A stretch of DNA of 64,000 nt from Escherichia phage MN01, in sequence record MT129652.1; one strand, written 5' to 3'. The notes under the pieces are model-generated. The model ran no database searches and was not told the origin of the DNA. It saw only the letters and a list, made by a program, of their open reading frames with translations. The position numbers were made by a program, and so were the translations under genes. Shown here one piece after another: positions 31,363-36,049 of this stretch (positions within the stretch are counted from its first letter, which is position 1; each line of letters opens with the position of its first letter).

Positions 31363-31702
31363 TCTTGCATCGCATGTTTATCAATTGGCTGAATATAATA
31401 TTGGTGCCAATTTATTATTGGGGATTGTCACCGCCATGCTTGGTGGTTTGGTTGGTCTGGTAATGACCACGGTTATGGCTGCAATTGAGGGAGTCATGCC
31501 TATTGAGATGGGCTTCTTTATGATAATTGCTCCGGCTGTTGTGGCTTATTTTATCCCGGTTGTGTATGATATCTGTCACACAAATGCCGTGAATGCTCCC
31601 AGCCGTAAGAGATATGCTTTGGCAATGGCTGAGTATAATAAGTTCCTAGACAAAACAAAACGTAATGACCTTGAAACCTTTATTAAGGAATGTAAATCAT
31701 GA
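31349..31702 (+). CDS. membrane protein, FIxEC-tail family
   Basis: start at MERPSL after AAGGAGG; multiple transmembrane segments; C-terminal ...LETFIKECKS. Confidence 0.55.
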   Translation: MERPSLASHVYQLAEYNIGANLLLGIVTAMLGGLVGLVMTTVMAAIEGVMPIEMGFFMIIAPAVVAYFIPVVYDICHTNAVNAPSRKRYALAMAEYNKFLDKTKRNDLETFIKECKS

Positions 31703-31989
31703 ATAAAATTGAAATTGAAATCCCTGAATACAACGACGAGAAATCCGCAGAAAAAGCCATCTATGACTTGCTGGGTAAAGTAGACACCATCGAATCCAAA
31801 TGTGAAGAAATTGCCGATAAGTACGGTATCCAATTCGGTACCGGCGATTACGGCACTGGCCGTACATATCATCCAGTTGGTTATGAATGTTCTGAATGGT
31901 TCGCCCACCATATTGAAAACAACGGTGGCCAGGTTGAAAACGGAATCGTTACTGTTGGCGCCTGGGTTTCCTCTTCTGAGGTGTGTTAA
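31699..31989 (+). CDS. small acidic protein, W-x-x-S-S-x-E-C C-terminal family (member 1)
   Basis: 96 aa; ends GAWVSSSEVC; shares EEIADKY with member 2. Confidence 0.55.
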   Translation: MNKIEIEIPEYNDEKSAEKAIYDLLGKVDTIESKCEEIADKYGIQFGTGDYGTGRTYHPVGYECSEWFAHHIENNGGQVENGIVTVGAWVSSSEVC

Positions 31990-31990
31990 T

Positions 31991-32272
31991 ATGATGAATG
32001 ATAACCATAACCAACCAGATCTTCTGGCCGCAGTAAAAGAAATCCATGAAGCCATTCGCCGTGCTGAGGAAATTGCAGACAAATATGAGACTCATTTTAA
32101 TATATACCCTGCTCGCGGTATGGGCGGTGACTATTATTCTCCTGGCGCCTTGAAAGCTGACCTTGCTCATTGGGAAGAAGATGGTCATCCTGAATGGGCC
32201 ATTGTTAATACTCATGACTACACAACCGACCTGGAAAATGGCGGTTGGGTGTCCTCTTCTTCTGAATGTTAA
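31991..32272 (+). CDS. small acidic protein, W-x-x-S-S-x-E-C family (member 2)
   Basis: start at the ATG two nt after the upstream stop; ends GGWVSSSSEC. Confidence 0.55.
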   Translation: MMNDNHNQPDLLAAVKEIHEAIRRAEEIADKYETHFNIYPARGMGGDYYSPGALKADLAHWEEDGHPEWAIVNTHDYTTDLENGGWVSSSSEC

Positions 32273-32280
32273 GGAATTAT

Positions 32281-32478
32281 ATGTCTCGTGAATTAGATTG
32301 TGCAATCCGTACTGCCGCAGCAGCTATTGAAAACGTTATCCAGATTTGCAAAGAAGAACGCGAAGAAGCTGATATCTATATCGATGGTGTTCGTGACCTA
32401 GACCGACATATTACGCTTTATAATGGTTGTATTACTATTAGTGGTACCTCTTGGGTGTCCTCCTCTTACGAATGCTAA
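32281..32478 (+). CDS. small acidic protein, W-x-x-S-S-x-E-C family (member 3)
   Basis: ends TSWVSSSYEC; AAGGAA Shine-Dalgarno. Confidence 0.55.
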   Translation: MSRELDCAIRTAAAAIENVIQICKEEREEADIYIDGVRDLDRHITLYNGCITISGTSWVSSSYEC

Positions 32479-32487
32479 GGAAATAAA

Positions 32488-32706
32488 ATGACTACTAAAA
32501 CTGTTAAAGAAATCGAAGACCAAATCCGTGCACTAATCTGTGAAGGTCTGACTGCGGCGGATGAAACCGGCGAACACTTCCGCGCCGGTGGCGAAGAATA
32601 TATTCCAGCTTCTAGCCCGGAATATGACGATTATGAATGGGTTCGTGATGAATATTGTATTCCAGAAGGTGAAGGTTTCTGGTTTAACTCCTCTATGTCT
32701 TGCTAA
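32488..32706 (+). CDS. small acidic protein, W-x-x-S-S-x-x-C family (member 4)
   Basis: ends GFWFNSSMSC; AAGGAAA Shine-Dalgarno. Confidence 0.5.
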   Translation: MTTKTVKEIEDQIRALICEGLTAADETGEHFRAGGEEYIPASSPEYDDYEWVRDEYCIPEGEGFWFNSSMSC

Positions 32707-32715
32707 GGTGATAAA

Positions 32716-32949
32716 ATGACTACTACTGTTGAACATGCTGAATTAGAAAAAGCTGCCCTTGAACTGGCCGCGCTGTATAAGAAAGTAAAAGATATGGCTT
32801 TTGCTCAAGATTTCGGTGTCGAGCTTGATGATTATGACGGCGAAGTCCGTCTTGAAGACTGGTTGAACAGCTCTTGTTATGGTGAAGAAGCTGGGCGTAC
32901 CTTCGTTGCTCGTGCCGATGGTAAAATCTGGTACCCAAGTTCATGTTAA
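32716..32949 (+). CDS. small acidic protein, W-x-x-S-S-C family (member 5)
   Basis: ends KIWYPSSC and has internal WLNSSCYGEE; AAGGTGA Shine-Dalgarno. Confidence 0.5.
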   Translation: MTTTVEHAELEKAALELAALYKKVKDMAFAQDFGVELDDYDGEVRLEDWLNSSCYGEEAGRTFVARADGKIWYPSSC

Positions 32950-33170
32950 AATTAAAGAAAAGATATATTCGTAAAATAAATGGTCTTCGTGATTACGCCA
33001 AAGGTTGGCCGTTAAGTATTATTATGGCTGATAGACATCCACGTTACAATACCGAGTTGACTTATTACAAAAAGTATGATTCGTATTGTCGGTCTAAAGC
33101 GGGTCGTTTAGATGGTTCCTATGAAGAATATTTCGGTAAAAAACCTACTCGTATTTCGTTAGGAAAATAA
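32943..33170 (+). CDS. small basic protein, hypothetical
   Basis: 75 aa Lys/Arg-rich ORF overlapping the upstream stop. Confidence 0.4.
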   Translation: MLKLKKRYIRKINGLRDYAKGWPLSIIMADRHPRYNTELTYYKKYDSYCRSKAGRLDGSYEEYFGKKPTRISLGK

Positions 33171-33273
33171 TTTAATCACAAGGATGTGATAGGAGGACTT
33201 ATGCGCAGAAATTTAGTGTACAAGCTCAAAGAAACGTAGTATCATTATCTTGTCAACTAATGAGGAAACCATT

Positions 33274-33504
33274 ATGTGGTATTATGCCCCAATGGCTGAT
33301 GAGCCTGTAAAAATTAGCCGTGCTAAGTTTACAAAGATTTACGGTCTCGTTTATAAAAAGTCTGATTACGGTGTGCGTTTTGAAGATGCACACTGTATCA
33401 ACGACCCTTATAATGAAGACCTCTATGGCAAATTGGTTCCTATCGTTAAGGGGTCCGCCTCTGAGATGATAGATGAATCTAATATATCTGCTGCTGAAAT
33501 TTAA
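33274..33504 (+). CDS. hypothetical protein
   Basis: start moved to MWYYAPM after GAGGAAA; promoter cassette upstream. Confidence 0.45.
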   Translation: MWYYAPMADEPVKISRAKFTKIYGLVYKKSDYGVRFEDAHCINDPYNEDLYGKLVPIVKGSASEMIDESNISAAEI

Positions 33505-33523
33505 GTTATCTGAGGAAAATATT

Positions 33524-34483
33524 ATGATGTTAGTTATTGGTTCTCGTGCATTACATAACGCTGGCCTGATTGAAAGTCAGAAAATTGAAAACTCTGATTG
33601 GGACTTCATCGCTGACCAAGGTTCCTGGAACCACTTTAAAGCACGTATGTTCGGTGCTCATGTTCCTGTGGATAACCCTGATGTCCAAGCTTTTAAATGT
33701 ATGTACAATGGCAAAGAAACTTATTTTGAAGCTTATATTGTCCGTGCCCTGACCAACGTACGAGAAATTACTGGTGAGCTTCAAGACGAAGATTTCACCT
33801 CAAGTTATCGTCTCTTGAAATACGCTGAAAATCATATTAAGAAAGACCGTCTTACAGGTTTCTATTGGGCAACTCCTGATATTTGTCTGGCAATTAAACT
33901 GTCTCATCGTTACCTGAAGAACAATCCATTCTTCCTGAAGACCATGAGCCATATTAATTACCTTCGTAATAAGGGTGTTGTTCTTAATGATGAACTGCAG
34001 AAAATCATGCTGCAACGGCAGGCAGAAACACTGTCATACAGCCACCCTAAACTAGACGTGGGCAAGAAAACTTTCTTTAATGATACAATCTATACCCTTG
34101 ACCATGACTCCATCCACGAGGCCGTGGCGCTTGCTGATAAGCCTGCATATAAGTTCTATATGAAGGATGATTCAGAAGTCATGACCTCGCGTGAAAAATT
34201 TGAAGCACTCCCTGATGTTATTAAACTGGCAGGTGTTTATGAAGAAGCATGTGTACTTGCTCTGGAGCGTTCGCAGGTTCCCAATGAGTTTAATATCTCT
34301 CCATCCGTGAGCTTCCATATTGCTCTGGAAAAAGTCTGCACCTCCATTACTTCTGGATGGTTCCGTGAGTATGCCTGGGAACATTACCAGGAAGTGGTTA
34401 ATATGTACAACACCCTGGGTCGCGAAGACTATGTTAAACGTTTCAAGGCTAACCAACATTTAATTCGTCCTTTCACAAAATAA
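33524..34483 (+). CDS. hypothetical protein with GS...DxD motif (possible nucleotidyltransferase fold)
   Basis: start moved to MMLVIGSRAL after GAGGAAAA; N-terminal IGSRAL...SDWDF loosely resembles the pol-beta nucleotidyltransferase signature but with long spacing. Confidence 0.5.
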   Translation: MMLVIGSRALHNAGLIESQKIENSDWDFIADQGSWNHFKARMFGAHVPVDNPDVQAFKCMYNGKETYFEAYIVRALTNVREITGELQDEDFTSSYRLLKYAENHIKKDRLTGFYWATPDICLAIKLSHRYLKNNPFFLKTMSHINYLRNKGVVLNDELQKIMLQRQAETLSYSHPKLDVGKKTFFNDTIYTLDHDSIHEAVALADKPAYKFYMKDDSEVMTSREKFEALPDVIKLAGVYEEACVLALERSQVPNEFNISPSVSFHIALEKVCTSITSGWFREYAWEHYQEVVNMYNTLGREDYVKRFKANQHLIRPFTK

Positions 34484-34542
34484 GTGTGTACATCCAAGTG
34501 GGACTATGACACAATGGTCCCACAATCAATGAGGAAAATATT

Positions 34543-35229
34543 ATGAACGGTCCAAAAACTTTTAATTCTCAAGCTCATGCAGTAGGCAGTTTCGCTGGTA
34601 AAATTTCTAATGATAAAATCAAAAACGAAACTATGTTCTTTAACAGCTCATTGGCTTTCGCTTTTGACAATGGTGGCCCTATTACTCGTAGCTTTATCAT
34701 GAGTCTGCCGGATGATTGGAACACTGACCAGGTTGTATTTGATTCTCGGGTTCATATGCTTATGCCTGGTTGGTATCCTGCTATCCCAGGTTATCACCAT
34801 GATGATGTACCACGCCCGGATATTCCGGTTGGTCAACACTTTATTACTGCAGGGCAACCTGATTATGATAATCCTCGTTACCATTCTGAACATATTCTTG
34901 GTCTTGTTAACGCTGATGTGTGTCCTACTTATTTTGCAACCGGAACTGCGCAATTTAGTCAGATTCCTGAAGGCGAACTTATCTATCGCCAGTGGCATAA
35001 AGAAGTTCTGGAAAAAATTGAGTCCAATGAATTAACCAAGTGGGATGCTCCTGACCGCACGTTGCTCCAGTTTGATTGGCAGACATGGCATACAGGTTCT
35101 CGCGCAGTAAGTAATGGTTGGCGCTGGTTTGGTCGTGTGTCTCGTAATACTGACCGTGTTAAAAAGATTACAAATGAAATCCGCGTCAATGCTCAAGTAT
35201 ATCTGGAATTCCCTATGGAGGGCTGGTAA
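34543..35229 (+). CDS. hypothetical protein
   Basis: 228 aa; GAGGAAAA Shine-Dalgarno; preceded by promoter cassette and stem-loop. Confidence 0.5.
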   Translation: MNGPKTFNSQAHAVGSFAGKISNDKIKNETMFFNSSLAFAFDNGGPITRSFIMSLPDDWNTDQVVFDSRVHMLMPGWYPAIPGYHHDDVPRPDIPVGQHFITAGQPDYDNPRYHSEHILGLVNADVCPTYFATGTAQFSQIPEGELIYRQWHKEVLEKIESNELTKWDAPDRTLLQFDWQTWHTGSRAVSNGWRWFGRVSRNTDRVKKITNEIRVNAQVYLEFPMEGW

Positions 35230-35816
35230 TGGCCCTTTATGAACCCGGCTGCATGGGTGTTGATGTAAACTTCATCCGCCGGGCAGAAAATACAGGTATA
35301 ATTGTATCAAGAGACGAATTTATGATTACCAAAAAATATTGGGCGAACCTTGATGATGGTGATGAAGGAATCAAGGTGGAAAATGTTGATTGGTCGCGAT
35401 GCAATCGTCATGTGAAAGAGCTTTTAATTAAGGAATATAAAATGGGATACATCATTAATGGGCATCAACCAGAACCGCTCAAAGAACAGACACCCGACCC
35501 ATTAATTTCTTATAGCAAGAAATATGGATTTCGTACCTGGAGTGATGAATTTGATAAGTTGATTTGTTCCAGGTTTTATGCCTGGGCTGGAATCTTATTT
35601 TTACCATTCCTGTGGTTTTTCTTGACAGGCAAAAATGAAGCACCCGTAGCTGTAATGGGCGCGTGCTTTTCTACTGCTCTTGCTGGGCTTATTGCATCAT
35701 TTTTATGGACTATGGTTATTGAAGTACCTTTTCGTATTTCTAAAGTTAAAAAGGTATATGACGATATCACTAAGAAAAATACATTGAACTCCTTTATTGA
35801 GGAATGCCGTAAATGA
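35229..35816 (+). CDS. membrane protein, FIxEC-tail family
   Basis: 195 aa; C-terminal transmembrane segments then ...TLNSFIEECRK; ATGA overlap with the next gene. Confidence 0.5.
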   Translation: MALYEPGCMGVDVNFIRRAENTGIIVSRDEFMITKKYWANLDDGDEGIKVENVDWSRCNRHVKELLIKEYKMGYIINGHQPEPLKEQTPDPLISYSKKYGFRTWSDEFDKLICSRFYAWAGILFLPFLWFFLTGKNEAPVAVMGACFSTALAGLIASFLWTMVIEVPFRISKVKKVYDDITKKNTLNSFIEECRK

Positions 35817-36049
35817 GTATTGCAATTTATATTAAATCCGAGTCATGTGATTCTTATCTGTATTCCTATGACACTGGAACACCAGAAGAGAAAATCAAAG
35901 ATGATTTAGAAACTGATTTAGATATGTTCCGCCCGATTTCTGAATACAGAATTCAAACTTCTGATAGTGAATCTCCTTCATTGGAAAACAGACTTGAATT
36001 TTTAATGAGTGATATTTTTAACCAATCATGGAAACGTGACGATGAGTAA
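35813..36049 (+). CDS. small acidic protein, hypothetical
   Basis: 78 aa ORF translationally coupled to the upstream gene. Confidence 0.45.
   Translation: MSIAIYIKSESCDSYLYSYDTGTPEEKIKDDLETDLDMFRPISEYRIQTSDSESPSLENRLEFLMSDIFNQSWKRDDE

What the first reader, a model, noticed from the sequence alone, without database searches (positions are those of the whole stretch)
31699..32949. Tandem array of five small acidic proteins ending in W-x-x-S-S-x-E-C
Five consecutive, translationally coupled genes encode 65-96 aa acidic proteins that are almost unrelated except at the extreme C-terminus: ...GAWVSSSEVC, ...GGWVSSSSEC, ...TSWVSSSYEC, ...GFWFNSSMSC, ...KIWYPSSC. The first two also share an EEIADKY block. 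A Trp followed by a Ser-rich stretch and a terminal Cys is conserved while everything upstream has diverged. That pattern points to a C-terminal tag recognised by a common partner, such as a modifying enzyme, a protease, a packaging or export route, or a metal or redox site. The diversified bodies suggest an arms-race effector family. I do not recognise this motif from any characterised phage protein family.
Basis: seen in the sequence. Interest (0 to 1): 0.65.

Follow-up and report, generated by a model that had tools for sequence, protein, structure and literature searches.

The report
Tail-tagged small proteins beside a phage nucleotidyltransferase
Five small acidic phage proteins that all end in Trp-x-x-Ser-Ser-(x-x)-Cys belong to a widespread, uncharacterised phage family that almost always sits just upstream of one conserved nucleotidyltransferase-like enzyme, which suggests an undescribed two-part phage system.

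Summary
Five adjacent + strand genes (31699-32949) encode 65-96 aa proteins with pI 4.1-4.6. Each ends in W-x-x-S-S-(0 or 2 residues)-Cys-stop, and no other frame in the window does.

They are not unrelated bodies carrying a common tag. They are paralogues of one small fold family (phrog_899 and phrog_4882). The model is confident (pLDDT 92.5) and has no solved structural relative.

The new result is context. Across 35 lineages of large phages, tail-bearing genes (1-6 per locus) lie 0-3.6 kb upstream, on the same strand, of one conserved ~310-aa protein. In the window this is 33524-34483 (DUF7277+DUF7275). In 85 loci fetched through that protein alone, the tail occurs in 193 of 1872 upstream same-strand frames and in 0 of 9881 other frames.

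I conclude the tail is the shared handle linking these proteins to that enzyme. Most likely it acts as an acceptor or pseudo-acceptor. This mechanism is inferred, not shown.

The parts
31699..31989 (+). g1, 96 aa, pI 4.4. Small tail-family protein with tail AWVSSSEVC (W89-C96, 31963-31986).
   Evidence: ORF and sequence. phrog_899 E 6e-21. Family HMM E 1.6e-22. AF2 pLDDT 92.5. Identical to phage MN01 protein QIN95456.1, annotated 'hypothetical protein'.
31991..32272 (+). g2, 93 aa, pI 4.6. Tail GWVSSSSEC (32246-32269). Its only Cys is the terminal one. Carries the RGMGGDYYSP loop.
   Evidence: phrog_899 E 2.8e-19. HMM E 7.5e-24. Alignment A3.
32281..32478 (+). g3, 65 aa, pI 4.5. Tail SWVSSSYEC (32452-32475). 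Divergent body.
   Evidence: phrog_4882 E 1.6e-36. Family HMM E 1.2e-08.
32488..32706 (+). g4, 72 aa, pI 4.1. Tail FWFNSSMSC (32680-32703).
   Evidence: phrog_899 E 5.5e-10. HMM E 8.8e-24.
32716..32949 (+). g5, 77 aa, pI 4.4. Short-class tail IWYPSSC (32929-32946), plus an internal second copy DWLNSSC (32860-32877).
   Evidence: phrog_899 E 5.9e-09. HMM E 3.3e-04. The short tail class W-x-x-S-S-C accounts for 47 of 206 tails.
33524..34483 (+). Candidate partner, 319 aa, pI 6.5. Pfam DUF7277 plus DUF7275, phrog_2141. Pol-beta-fold nucleotidyltransferase with invariant G6 S7, D25 x D27 and E69.

Best explanation
The five genes are the small-protein half of a two-part, phage-specific module. The other half is the conserved nucleotidyltransferase (NTase) encoded just downstream at 33524-34483.

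The small proteins share one compact fold: a long N-terminal helix followed by a small beta-sheet. The last strand and final turn of that fold carry the invariant W-x-x-S-S-(x-x)-Cys-COOH.

My committed mechanism is that this tail is the element each paralogue presents to the NTase. One conserved enzyme would then work on, or with, a variable set of 1-6 'client' proteins. Most likely it uses a tail Ser hydroxyl (or the terminal Cys) as acceptor for a nucleotidyl or phosphoryl group. The divergent acidic bodies would carry the different downstream activities.

Shown: the family, its fold, the motif statistics, the synteny, the NTase fold and its catalytic signature.
Inferred: that the two proteins touch, that contact is through the tail, and that the tail is modified.

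My estimates: about 0.7 that the small proteins and the NTase are direct functional partners, and about 0.35 that the tail is a covalent acceptor.
For: (1) Forward synteny. Of 41 loci found through the small family, 38 have the NTase 0-1.4 kb downstream on the same strand. The other 3 are contigs that end before it.

(2) Reverse synteny. In 85 loci found through the NTase alone, the strict tail occurs in 193 of 1872 same-strand frames within 3.6 kb upstream and in 0 of 9881 other frames. 79 of the 85 loci have at least one.

(3) Across 35 NTase lineages (below 60% identity), the tail family is the only co-conserved neighbour. 33 of 35 lineages have it, with 1-6 copies.

(4) Asymmetry. The NTase occurs without tail genes (L065; L085/L087/L097/L120). 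The small family was never seen without the NTase in uncut loci. This fits accessory clients of an enzyme.

(5) Co-absence. The whole T4 genome has neither component. The 185,579-genome bacterial and archaeal set yielded only 5 MAG contigs, and those also carry tail ORFs.

(6) The enzyme looks active. G-S, D-x-D and E are invariant, and it is 40-70% identical across lineages in which the small proteins are below 30% identical.

(7) The tail is under protein-level selection and is retained when the body has diverged almost beyond profile detection (g3, g5).

(8) Precedent. Pol-beta-fold enzymes transfer NMP to protein hydroxyls, and MenT1 and MenT3 transfer phosphate to an active-site Thr or Ser (PMC11375011).

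(9) No + strand terminator-like site lies between the array and the NTase.
Against: No physical or structural evidence of contact was obtained.

In the monomer model the Trp is in a beta-strand and the last residues form a helical turn (pLDDT about 81 for the last block). The tail may therefore be partly buried and structural rather than a free acceptor.

The Cys sits at W+5 or W+7, so its geometry relative to W-x-x-S-S is not fixed.

Two unrelated genes (75 and 77 aa) lie between the array and the NTase in this window.

The tail-less NTase lineages keep all the invariant NTase residues, so no tail-binding signature was found.

Synteny could reflect co-regulation without contact.
Confidence: 0.4

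Rival explanations
1. Antitoxin-like regulators. The small proteins bind and hold in check, or time, a potentially toxic tRNA-directed NTase. This is what the 68-aa MenA1, encoded upstream of MenT1, does. The tail would act as a pseudo-substrate plug or as an inducer of enzyme self-modification.
Against: Five very different paralogues inhibiting one enzyme would be redundant. The NTase exists alone in at least 2 lineages with its catalytic residues intact, which is unexpected for a toxin that needs an antidote. The enzyme has a canonical D-x-D where MenT has S/T-x-D. It has no sequence match to DUF1814 or to PADLOC models. Its pI is 6.5, not basic. There is no evidence that the enzyme is toxic.
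Confidence: 0.25
2. Adaptors. The tail docks non-covalently on the NTase, and each variable body recruits a different host or rival-phage target for nucleotidylation. This would be an F-box-like logic.
For: The pattern is an invariant docking element on a diversified body, with several paralogues per enzyme. g1 and g4 evolve faster than the enzyme, and the array is mosaic.
Against: The evidence is purely pattern-based. The bodies are only 50-85 residues, most of which is shared fold, so little surface is left for target binding. No targets are known.
Confidence: 0.1
3. Structural or metal-binding motif without enzyme contact. W-x-x-S-S-C is a fold-closing or dimerising, thiol- or metal-binding element of the small proteins. 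The NTase would be a neighbour only because both act in the same pathway (for example on tRNA ends) or are co-regulated.
For: In the model the Trp lies in the last beta-strand, with high confidence. Some members carry a second, internal W-x-x-S-S-C (g5; P0060, P0063, P0087, P0092). This could pair with the terminal copy as a pseudo-dimer. 78 of 212 members have the terminal Cys as their only Cys, so any Cys pairing would have to be between molecules.
Against: This does not explain why the Cys must be the very last residue in 126 of 128 body-defined relatives. It also does not explain the near-absolute, directional synteny over 35 lineages.
Confidence: 0.18
4. A tag read by host machinery: a degron, an export signal or a packaging signal.
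For: The position at the extreme C-terminus resembles C-terminal degrons.
Against: The tail does not resemble the known E. coli C-terminal degrons (my own knowledge, not tested). The hosts range from Enterobacteria to Aeromonas, Pseudomonas, Acinetobacter and Xanthomonas, yet the tail is invariant. This reading leaves the linkage to the NTase unexplained.
Confidence: 0.05

Closest known systems
MenAT1 (MenA1-MenT1) toxin-antitoxin pair of Mycobacterium tuberculosis; the wider MenT/AbiEii (DUF1814) nucleotidyltransferases
   Different: There is no sequence similarity. The phage enzyme has a canonical D-x-D plus E where MenT has S/T-x-D, and it carries about 120 extra, highly conserved C-terminal residues. 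It is phage-encoded and essentially absent from bacterial genomes. The small partners are a different fold family with an invariant WxxSS(xx)C end, occur in arrays of up to 6, and are not always present. Toxicity and tRNA activity are untested.
Small-molecule O-nucleotidyltransferases ANT(2'')-Ia (AadB) and LnuA
   Different: They are about 160-180 aa enzymes that act on antibiotics and have no protein partners. The phage protein has a large conserved helical domain (DUF7275).
Protein-nucleotidylating Pol-beta-fold enzymes (GlnE, GlnD, MntA of the MNT-HEPN systems, DrrA)
   Same: They provide the logic proposed here, an NTase that modifies a hydroxyl of a partner protein. In MNT-HEPN the partner is also encoded next door. 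This comparison rests on my own knowledge of the literature.
PHROG families phrog_899, phrog_4882 (small proteins) and phrog_2141 (enzyme); Pfam DUF7277 and DUF7275
   Same: The window's proteins are members.
   Different: These are catalogue entries with no function attached. Neither the tail motif nor the linkage between the small and large families is recorded there, and no paper mentioning them was found.

Membership tests
phrog_899 / phrog_4882 small phage proteins (tail family) | Full-length profile match | tested here: met
   g1, g2, g4 and g5 match phrog_899 at E 6e-21 to 6e-9. g3 matches phrog_4882 at E 2e-36. All five hit a family HMM built here.
phrog_899 / phrog_4882 small phage proteins (tail family) | C-terminal W-x-x-S-S-(0 or 2 residues)-Cys as the last residues | tested here: met
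   Present in all five. Found in 126 of 128 relatives identified with a tail-less body profile.
phrog_899 / phrog_4882 small phage proteins (tail family) | Encoded upstream of a DUF7277/DUF7275 gene on the same strand | tested here: met
   In the window the array ends at 32949 and the enzyme starts at 33524. Also seen in 38 of 38 uncut loci.
Pol-beta superfamily nucleotidyltransferases | hG[GS] ... D-x-[DE] signature plus a third carboxylate | tested here: met
   VIGS(4-7), D25-W-D27 and E69 are invariant in 36 diverse homologues. G, S, D and D are also kept in the distant homologues from Gram-positive-host phages.
Pol-beta superfamily nucleotidyltransferases | alpha/beta NTase core fold | tested here: met
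Pol-beta superfamily nucleotidyltransferases | Nucleotidyl transfer activity | not testable with these tools
   Requires biochemistry.
MenT/AbiEii (DUF1814) toxins | Sequence membership in DUF1814 (Pfam) or in AbiE models (PADLOC) | tested here: not met
   There is no Pfam hit other than DUF7275 and DUF7277, even at E up to 10. There is no AbiE hit in PADLOC. Sequence and profile searches of the PDB found no MenT chain.
MenT/AbiEii (DUF1814) toxins | Phospho-acceptor Ser/Thr two residues before the catalytic Asp (S78-x-D80 in MenT3, T39-x-D41 in MenT1) | tested here: not met
   The equivalent position is an invariant Asp (D25-x-D27). The MenT residues are taken from PMC10435456 and PMC7450476.
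MenT/AbiEii (DUF1814) toxins | Growth-inhibiting toxin neutralised by a cognate upstream antitoxin; adds nucleotides to tRNA 3' ends | not testable with these tools
   There are only indirect hints. tRNA genes lie within 5 kb in 13 of 60 loci. Distant homologues sit beside pnk, tRNA genes or a tRNA nucleotidyltransferase.
   The whole T4 genome gave no tail-regex ORF and no HMM hit at E up to 10 for either family. In T4, e.3 and e.2 abut.

The most novel reading that the evidence does not exclude
A phage protein-tagging system. One conserved nucleotidyltransferase would covalently nucleotidylate (or phosphorylate) the Ser or Cys of a shared C-terminal WxxSS(xx)C tail on a diversifying set of small acidic proteins. 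This would arm or switch them, possibly as mimics of the tRNA acceptor end, to interfere with host tRNA-directed defences or with translation.
Probability: 0.25. Interest if true: 0.85.

Novelty: new variant of a known kind. Interest (0 to 1): 0.62.

Why it matters
Large lytic phages carry hundreds of small genes with no assigned function. This analysis ties one such family to a specific enzyme through a residue-level signature that can be mutated directly. The family occurs in T4-like phages (though not T4 itself), rV5-like phages, phiPsa374-like phages and jumbo phages.

If the tail is an acceptor, this would be a virus-encoded protein-nucleotidylation system with several clients. If the small proteins are regulators, it would be a MenAT-like toxin-control pair moved into lytic phages.

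Either outcome would give Pfam DUF7275 and DUF7277, and three PHROG families, their first functional hypothesis. It may also connect to the contest between phages and hosts over tRNA 3' ends.

Tried and rejected
- Pfam, NCBIfam and PADLOC scans of the five small proteins found nothing.
- BFVD returned only uncharacterised family members.
- The AFDB library was unavailable.
- A PDB profile search with the small family gave only spurious hits to designed helical proteins.
- PDB sequence and profile searches with the enzyme found nothing.
A narrower alignment, A4, worked.
- Three long hits in the exhaustive search (P0053, P0059, P0104) are repeat or coiled-coil artefacts, not fusions.
- I looked for a third conserved gene in the module and found none.
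- I looked for NTase residues that change in tail-less lineages. None change within the proteobacterial-phage clade. Differences in the Gram-positive-host phage homologues (for example C271, R280, R164) are confounded by phylogenetic distance.
- I considered a DNA-level repeat or recombination cassette as the source of the tail and rejected it on codon diversity.
- T4 nrdC.11, annotated 'nucleotidyltransferase', is not detectably related.
- Literature searches for family names, ORF names and motif strings found nothing relevant.
- A RiPP or AviCys-type reading (Ser-x-x-Cys-COOH) was considered only from memory. The proteins are folded and no RiPP enzyme is linked, so I did not pursue it.

Full report
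**What is there**

Five + strand ORFs lie head to tail: g1 31699-31989 (96 aa), g2 31991-32272 (93 aa), g3 32281-32478 (65 aa), g4 32488-32706 (72 aa) and g5 32716-32949 (77 aa).

All five are acidic, with pI 4.1-4.6. The gaps between them are 1-9 nt. The g1 start overlaps the e.3 stop codon. Each TAA stop runs into the next gene's ribosome-binding site (TAAGGA or TAAGGT). Among 684 stop-to-stop frames of at least 40 aa in the window, only these five carry the tail. The proteins are identical to hypothetical proteins MN01_00078-00082 of Escherichia phage MN01. At the DNA level the region is 88-92% identical to VR7-, SP18- and JS98-type T4-like phages.

**They are paralogues, not unrelated bodies**

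Four of the five match phrog_899 over their full length (E 6e-21 to 6e-9), and g3 matches phrog_4882. Pfam, NCBIfam and PADLOC find nothing.

Alignments with relatives show a common plan:
- an N-terminal helix ending in 'EAExIADexG';
- an 'F.F' strand;
- in many members a 'YGMGGTYYP' or 'GDYGSGRTYYP' loop;
- an acidic, Trp-containing linker;
- the C-terminal 'G.W.SSS..C'.

**The tail is a family-wide, protein-level constraint**

An exhaustive profile search of 1.84 billion representative proteins gave 71 hits. Almost all are 70-140 aa, and their match runs to the very last residue.

A profile built from the bodies with the tail columns removed recovered 128 distinct relatives from independently fetched loci. 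Of these, 126 end in Cys as the final residue, against a 4.7% background, and 125 carry the tail.

In 149 distinct tail DNAs the two invariant Ser positions use all six Ser codons, Cys uses both of its codons, and all three stop codons occur. This is selection on the protein, not a DNA repeat.

There are two tail classes, W-x-x-S-S-x-x-C (149 tails) and W-x-x-S-S-C (47 tails, like g5). The W-x-x-S-S core is therefore fixed while the Cys sits at W+7 or W+5. Some members, including g5, also carry an internal W-x-x-S-S-C.

**The key finding: a conserved neighbour**

I fetched 39 viral loci through a small-family motif and clustered the ORFs from those loci, the VR7 locus and the window (41 loci in all). 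One ~310-330 aa protein was present in 38 of the 41. It was always on the same strand and 0-1.4 kb downstream. The three exceptions are contigs that end too early. In the window this protein is 33524-34483, which matches Pfam DUF7277 plus DUF7275 and phrog_2141.

The reverse test used 85 loci fetched only through that large protein. The strict tail pattern occurs in 193 of 1872 same-strand frames within 3.6 kb upstream. It occurs in 0 of 9881 frames elsewhere or on the other strand.

I collapsed the loci into 35 lineages at below 60% enzyme identity. The tail family is the only co-conserved neighbour. It is present in 33 of the 35 lineages, with maximum copy numbers of 1 (13 lineages), 2 (13), 3 (1), 4 (3), 5 (2) and 6 (1).

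A few lineages have the enzyme without tail genes, and their catalytic residues are intact. The reverse case was not seen.

T4 has neither component anywhere in its genome, and its e.3 and e.2 genes abut where this window carries the block.

The bacterial and archaeal genome set gave no small-family hit for the motif searched. It gave only five MAG contigs for the enzyme, and these also carry tail ORFs.

The enzyme occurs in 697 phage records. These include T4-like phages of Enterobacteria, Aeromonas and Acinetobacter, rV5-like phages, phiPsa374-like phages, jumbo phages, and partial homologues in actinophages and Bacillus phage G.

**What the neighbour is**

It has more than 2000 unnamed homologues at 40-70% identity. 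The invariant residues include G6-S7, D25-x-D27, E69, K125/H128, D193-H194-D195/H198, E240-E241, E248-R249, C243 and C272.

It differs from the MenT toxins in two ways. It has a canonical D-x-D where they have S/T-x-D, and it carries about 120 extra, highly conserved C-terminal residues.

MenT enzymes add nucleotides to tRNA 3' ends (PMC7450476). MenT1 is controlled by a 68-aa protein encoded upstream, which binds through a long helix and induces auto-phosphorylation of an active-site Thr (PMC10435456, PMC11375011).

The hints of a tRNA connection here are weak. tRNA genes lie within 5 kb in 13 of 60 loci. tRNA-Met and tRNA-Arg lie 5.3 kb upstream in the window. Distant homologues sit next to pnk, tRNA clusters or a tRNA nucleotidyltransferase.

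**How it most likely works**

The following are shown:
- a fold family with an invariant terminal W-x-x-S-S-(x-x)-Cys;
- strict, directional linkage to an apparently active nucleotidyltransferase;
- faster evolution and mosaicism of the small genes: g1 and g4 are 64-84% identical where the enzyme is 86-99%, and g2/g3 are closest to one relative while the enzyme is closest to another.

The following are inferred. I think the tail is what each paralogue presents to the enzyme. I favour a 'client' model, at about 0.35, in which a tail Ser (or the Cys) is the acceptor for a nucleotidyl or phosphoryl group. This model explains three things: why several very different paralogues keep only the tail, why the enzyme can exist alone, and why hydroxyl residues are invariant.

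The main rival, at about 0.25, is a MenA1-like regulator or pseudo-substrate. Gene order and the N-terminal helix favour it. Its weaknesses are the redundancy of five inhibitors and the existence of stand-alone enzymes.

The remaining alternatives are an adaptor model (about 0.1), a purely structural or metal-binding tail with no enzyme contact (about 0.18), and a tag read by the host (about 0.05).

That model, together with intact-mass spectrometry, is the decisive test.

**Novelty**

The families are catalogued as being of unknown function. I found no paper that mentions them, the motif or the linkage.

The enzyme fold is known. A small upstream partner of a MenT-like NTase has a precedent. 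The invariant C-terminal tail, the multi-copy arrays and the restriction to phages do not. I therefore rate this a new variant of a known kind, with a realistic chance of something more novel.

Noticed in passing
window 31699-36000 versus T4 67957-67960 (L130): The whole block lies between the e.3 and e.2/e.1 homologues, which directly abut in T4. It contains the five small genes, a 75-aa and a 77-aa ORF, the NTase, a 228-aa ORF and a 195-aa membrane-protein ORF. It is therefore a hyperplastic-region insertion relative to T4.
   Followed up: partly
window 31699-34483 versus L041, L045, L047: The array is mosaic. g2 and g3 are 98% identical to the L045/L047 (JS98/IME08-type) copies. The NTase is 99% identical to the L041 (VR20) copy. 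g1 and g4 are only 64-84% identical to any close relative. This suggests recombination inside the array.
   Followed up: partly
window 32860-32877: g5 has an internal second copy of the motif (DWLNSSC-YGEE). The same internal 'DW..SS.C-YG-acidic' element recurs in distant members (P0060, P0063, P0087, P0092).
   Followed up: partly
window 32943-33170: A 75-aa basic ORF (pI 10.0, phrog_7065) starts inside the g5 stop region (ATGTTAA). It is present in only some close relatives (L044, L045, L047). Its function is unknown.
   Followed up: no
window 26241-26393: Adjacent tRNA-Met(CAT) and tRNA-Arg(TCT) genes lie 5.3 kb upstream of the array.
   Followed up: partly
window 33387-33414: This is the best sigma-70-like promoter match in the region (10 of 12), just upstream of the NTase gene. 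The total number of matches in the region is below the shuffled expectation, so it may be chance.
   Followed up: no
L128 3013-3459 (Bacillus phage G gp204): The ORF directly upstream of the distant NTase homologue gp205 is very acidic and ends ...EEEETSSSW. It has Ser and Trp near the end but lacks the family tail. A tRNA nucleotidyltransferase (gp199) lies nearby.
   Followed up: no
L127 (Gordonia phage Miskis) and L126 (Streptomyces phage BillNye): Partial homologues of the DUF7275 domain sit next to a tRNA gene cluster (Miskis gp14) and near a polynucleotide kinase (BillNye gp172/gp180). Neither locus has tail-bearing ORFs.
   Followed up: partly
L132 5435-6445 (T4 nrdC.11): T4 nrdC.11 is annotated 'nucleotidyltransferase' but shows no profile similarity to the DUF7277/DUF7275 enzyme (E above 10).
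   Followed up: yes
NTase alignment, window protein positions about 128, 139, 164, 171, 271, 276, 280: These residues are invariant in the proteobacterial-phage clade, where tail genes occur. They differ in the tail-less homologues from Gram-positive-host phages (R128, T139, R164, Y171, C271, S276, R280). They are possible tail-contact candidates, but the comparison is confounded by phylogenetic distance.
   Followed up: partly
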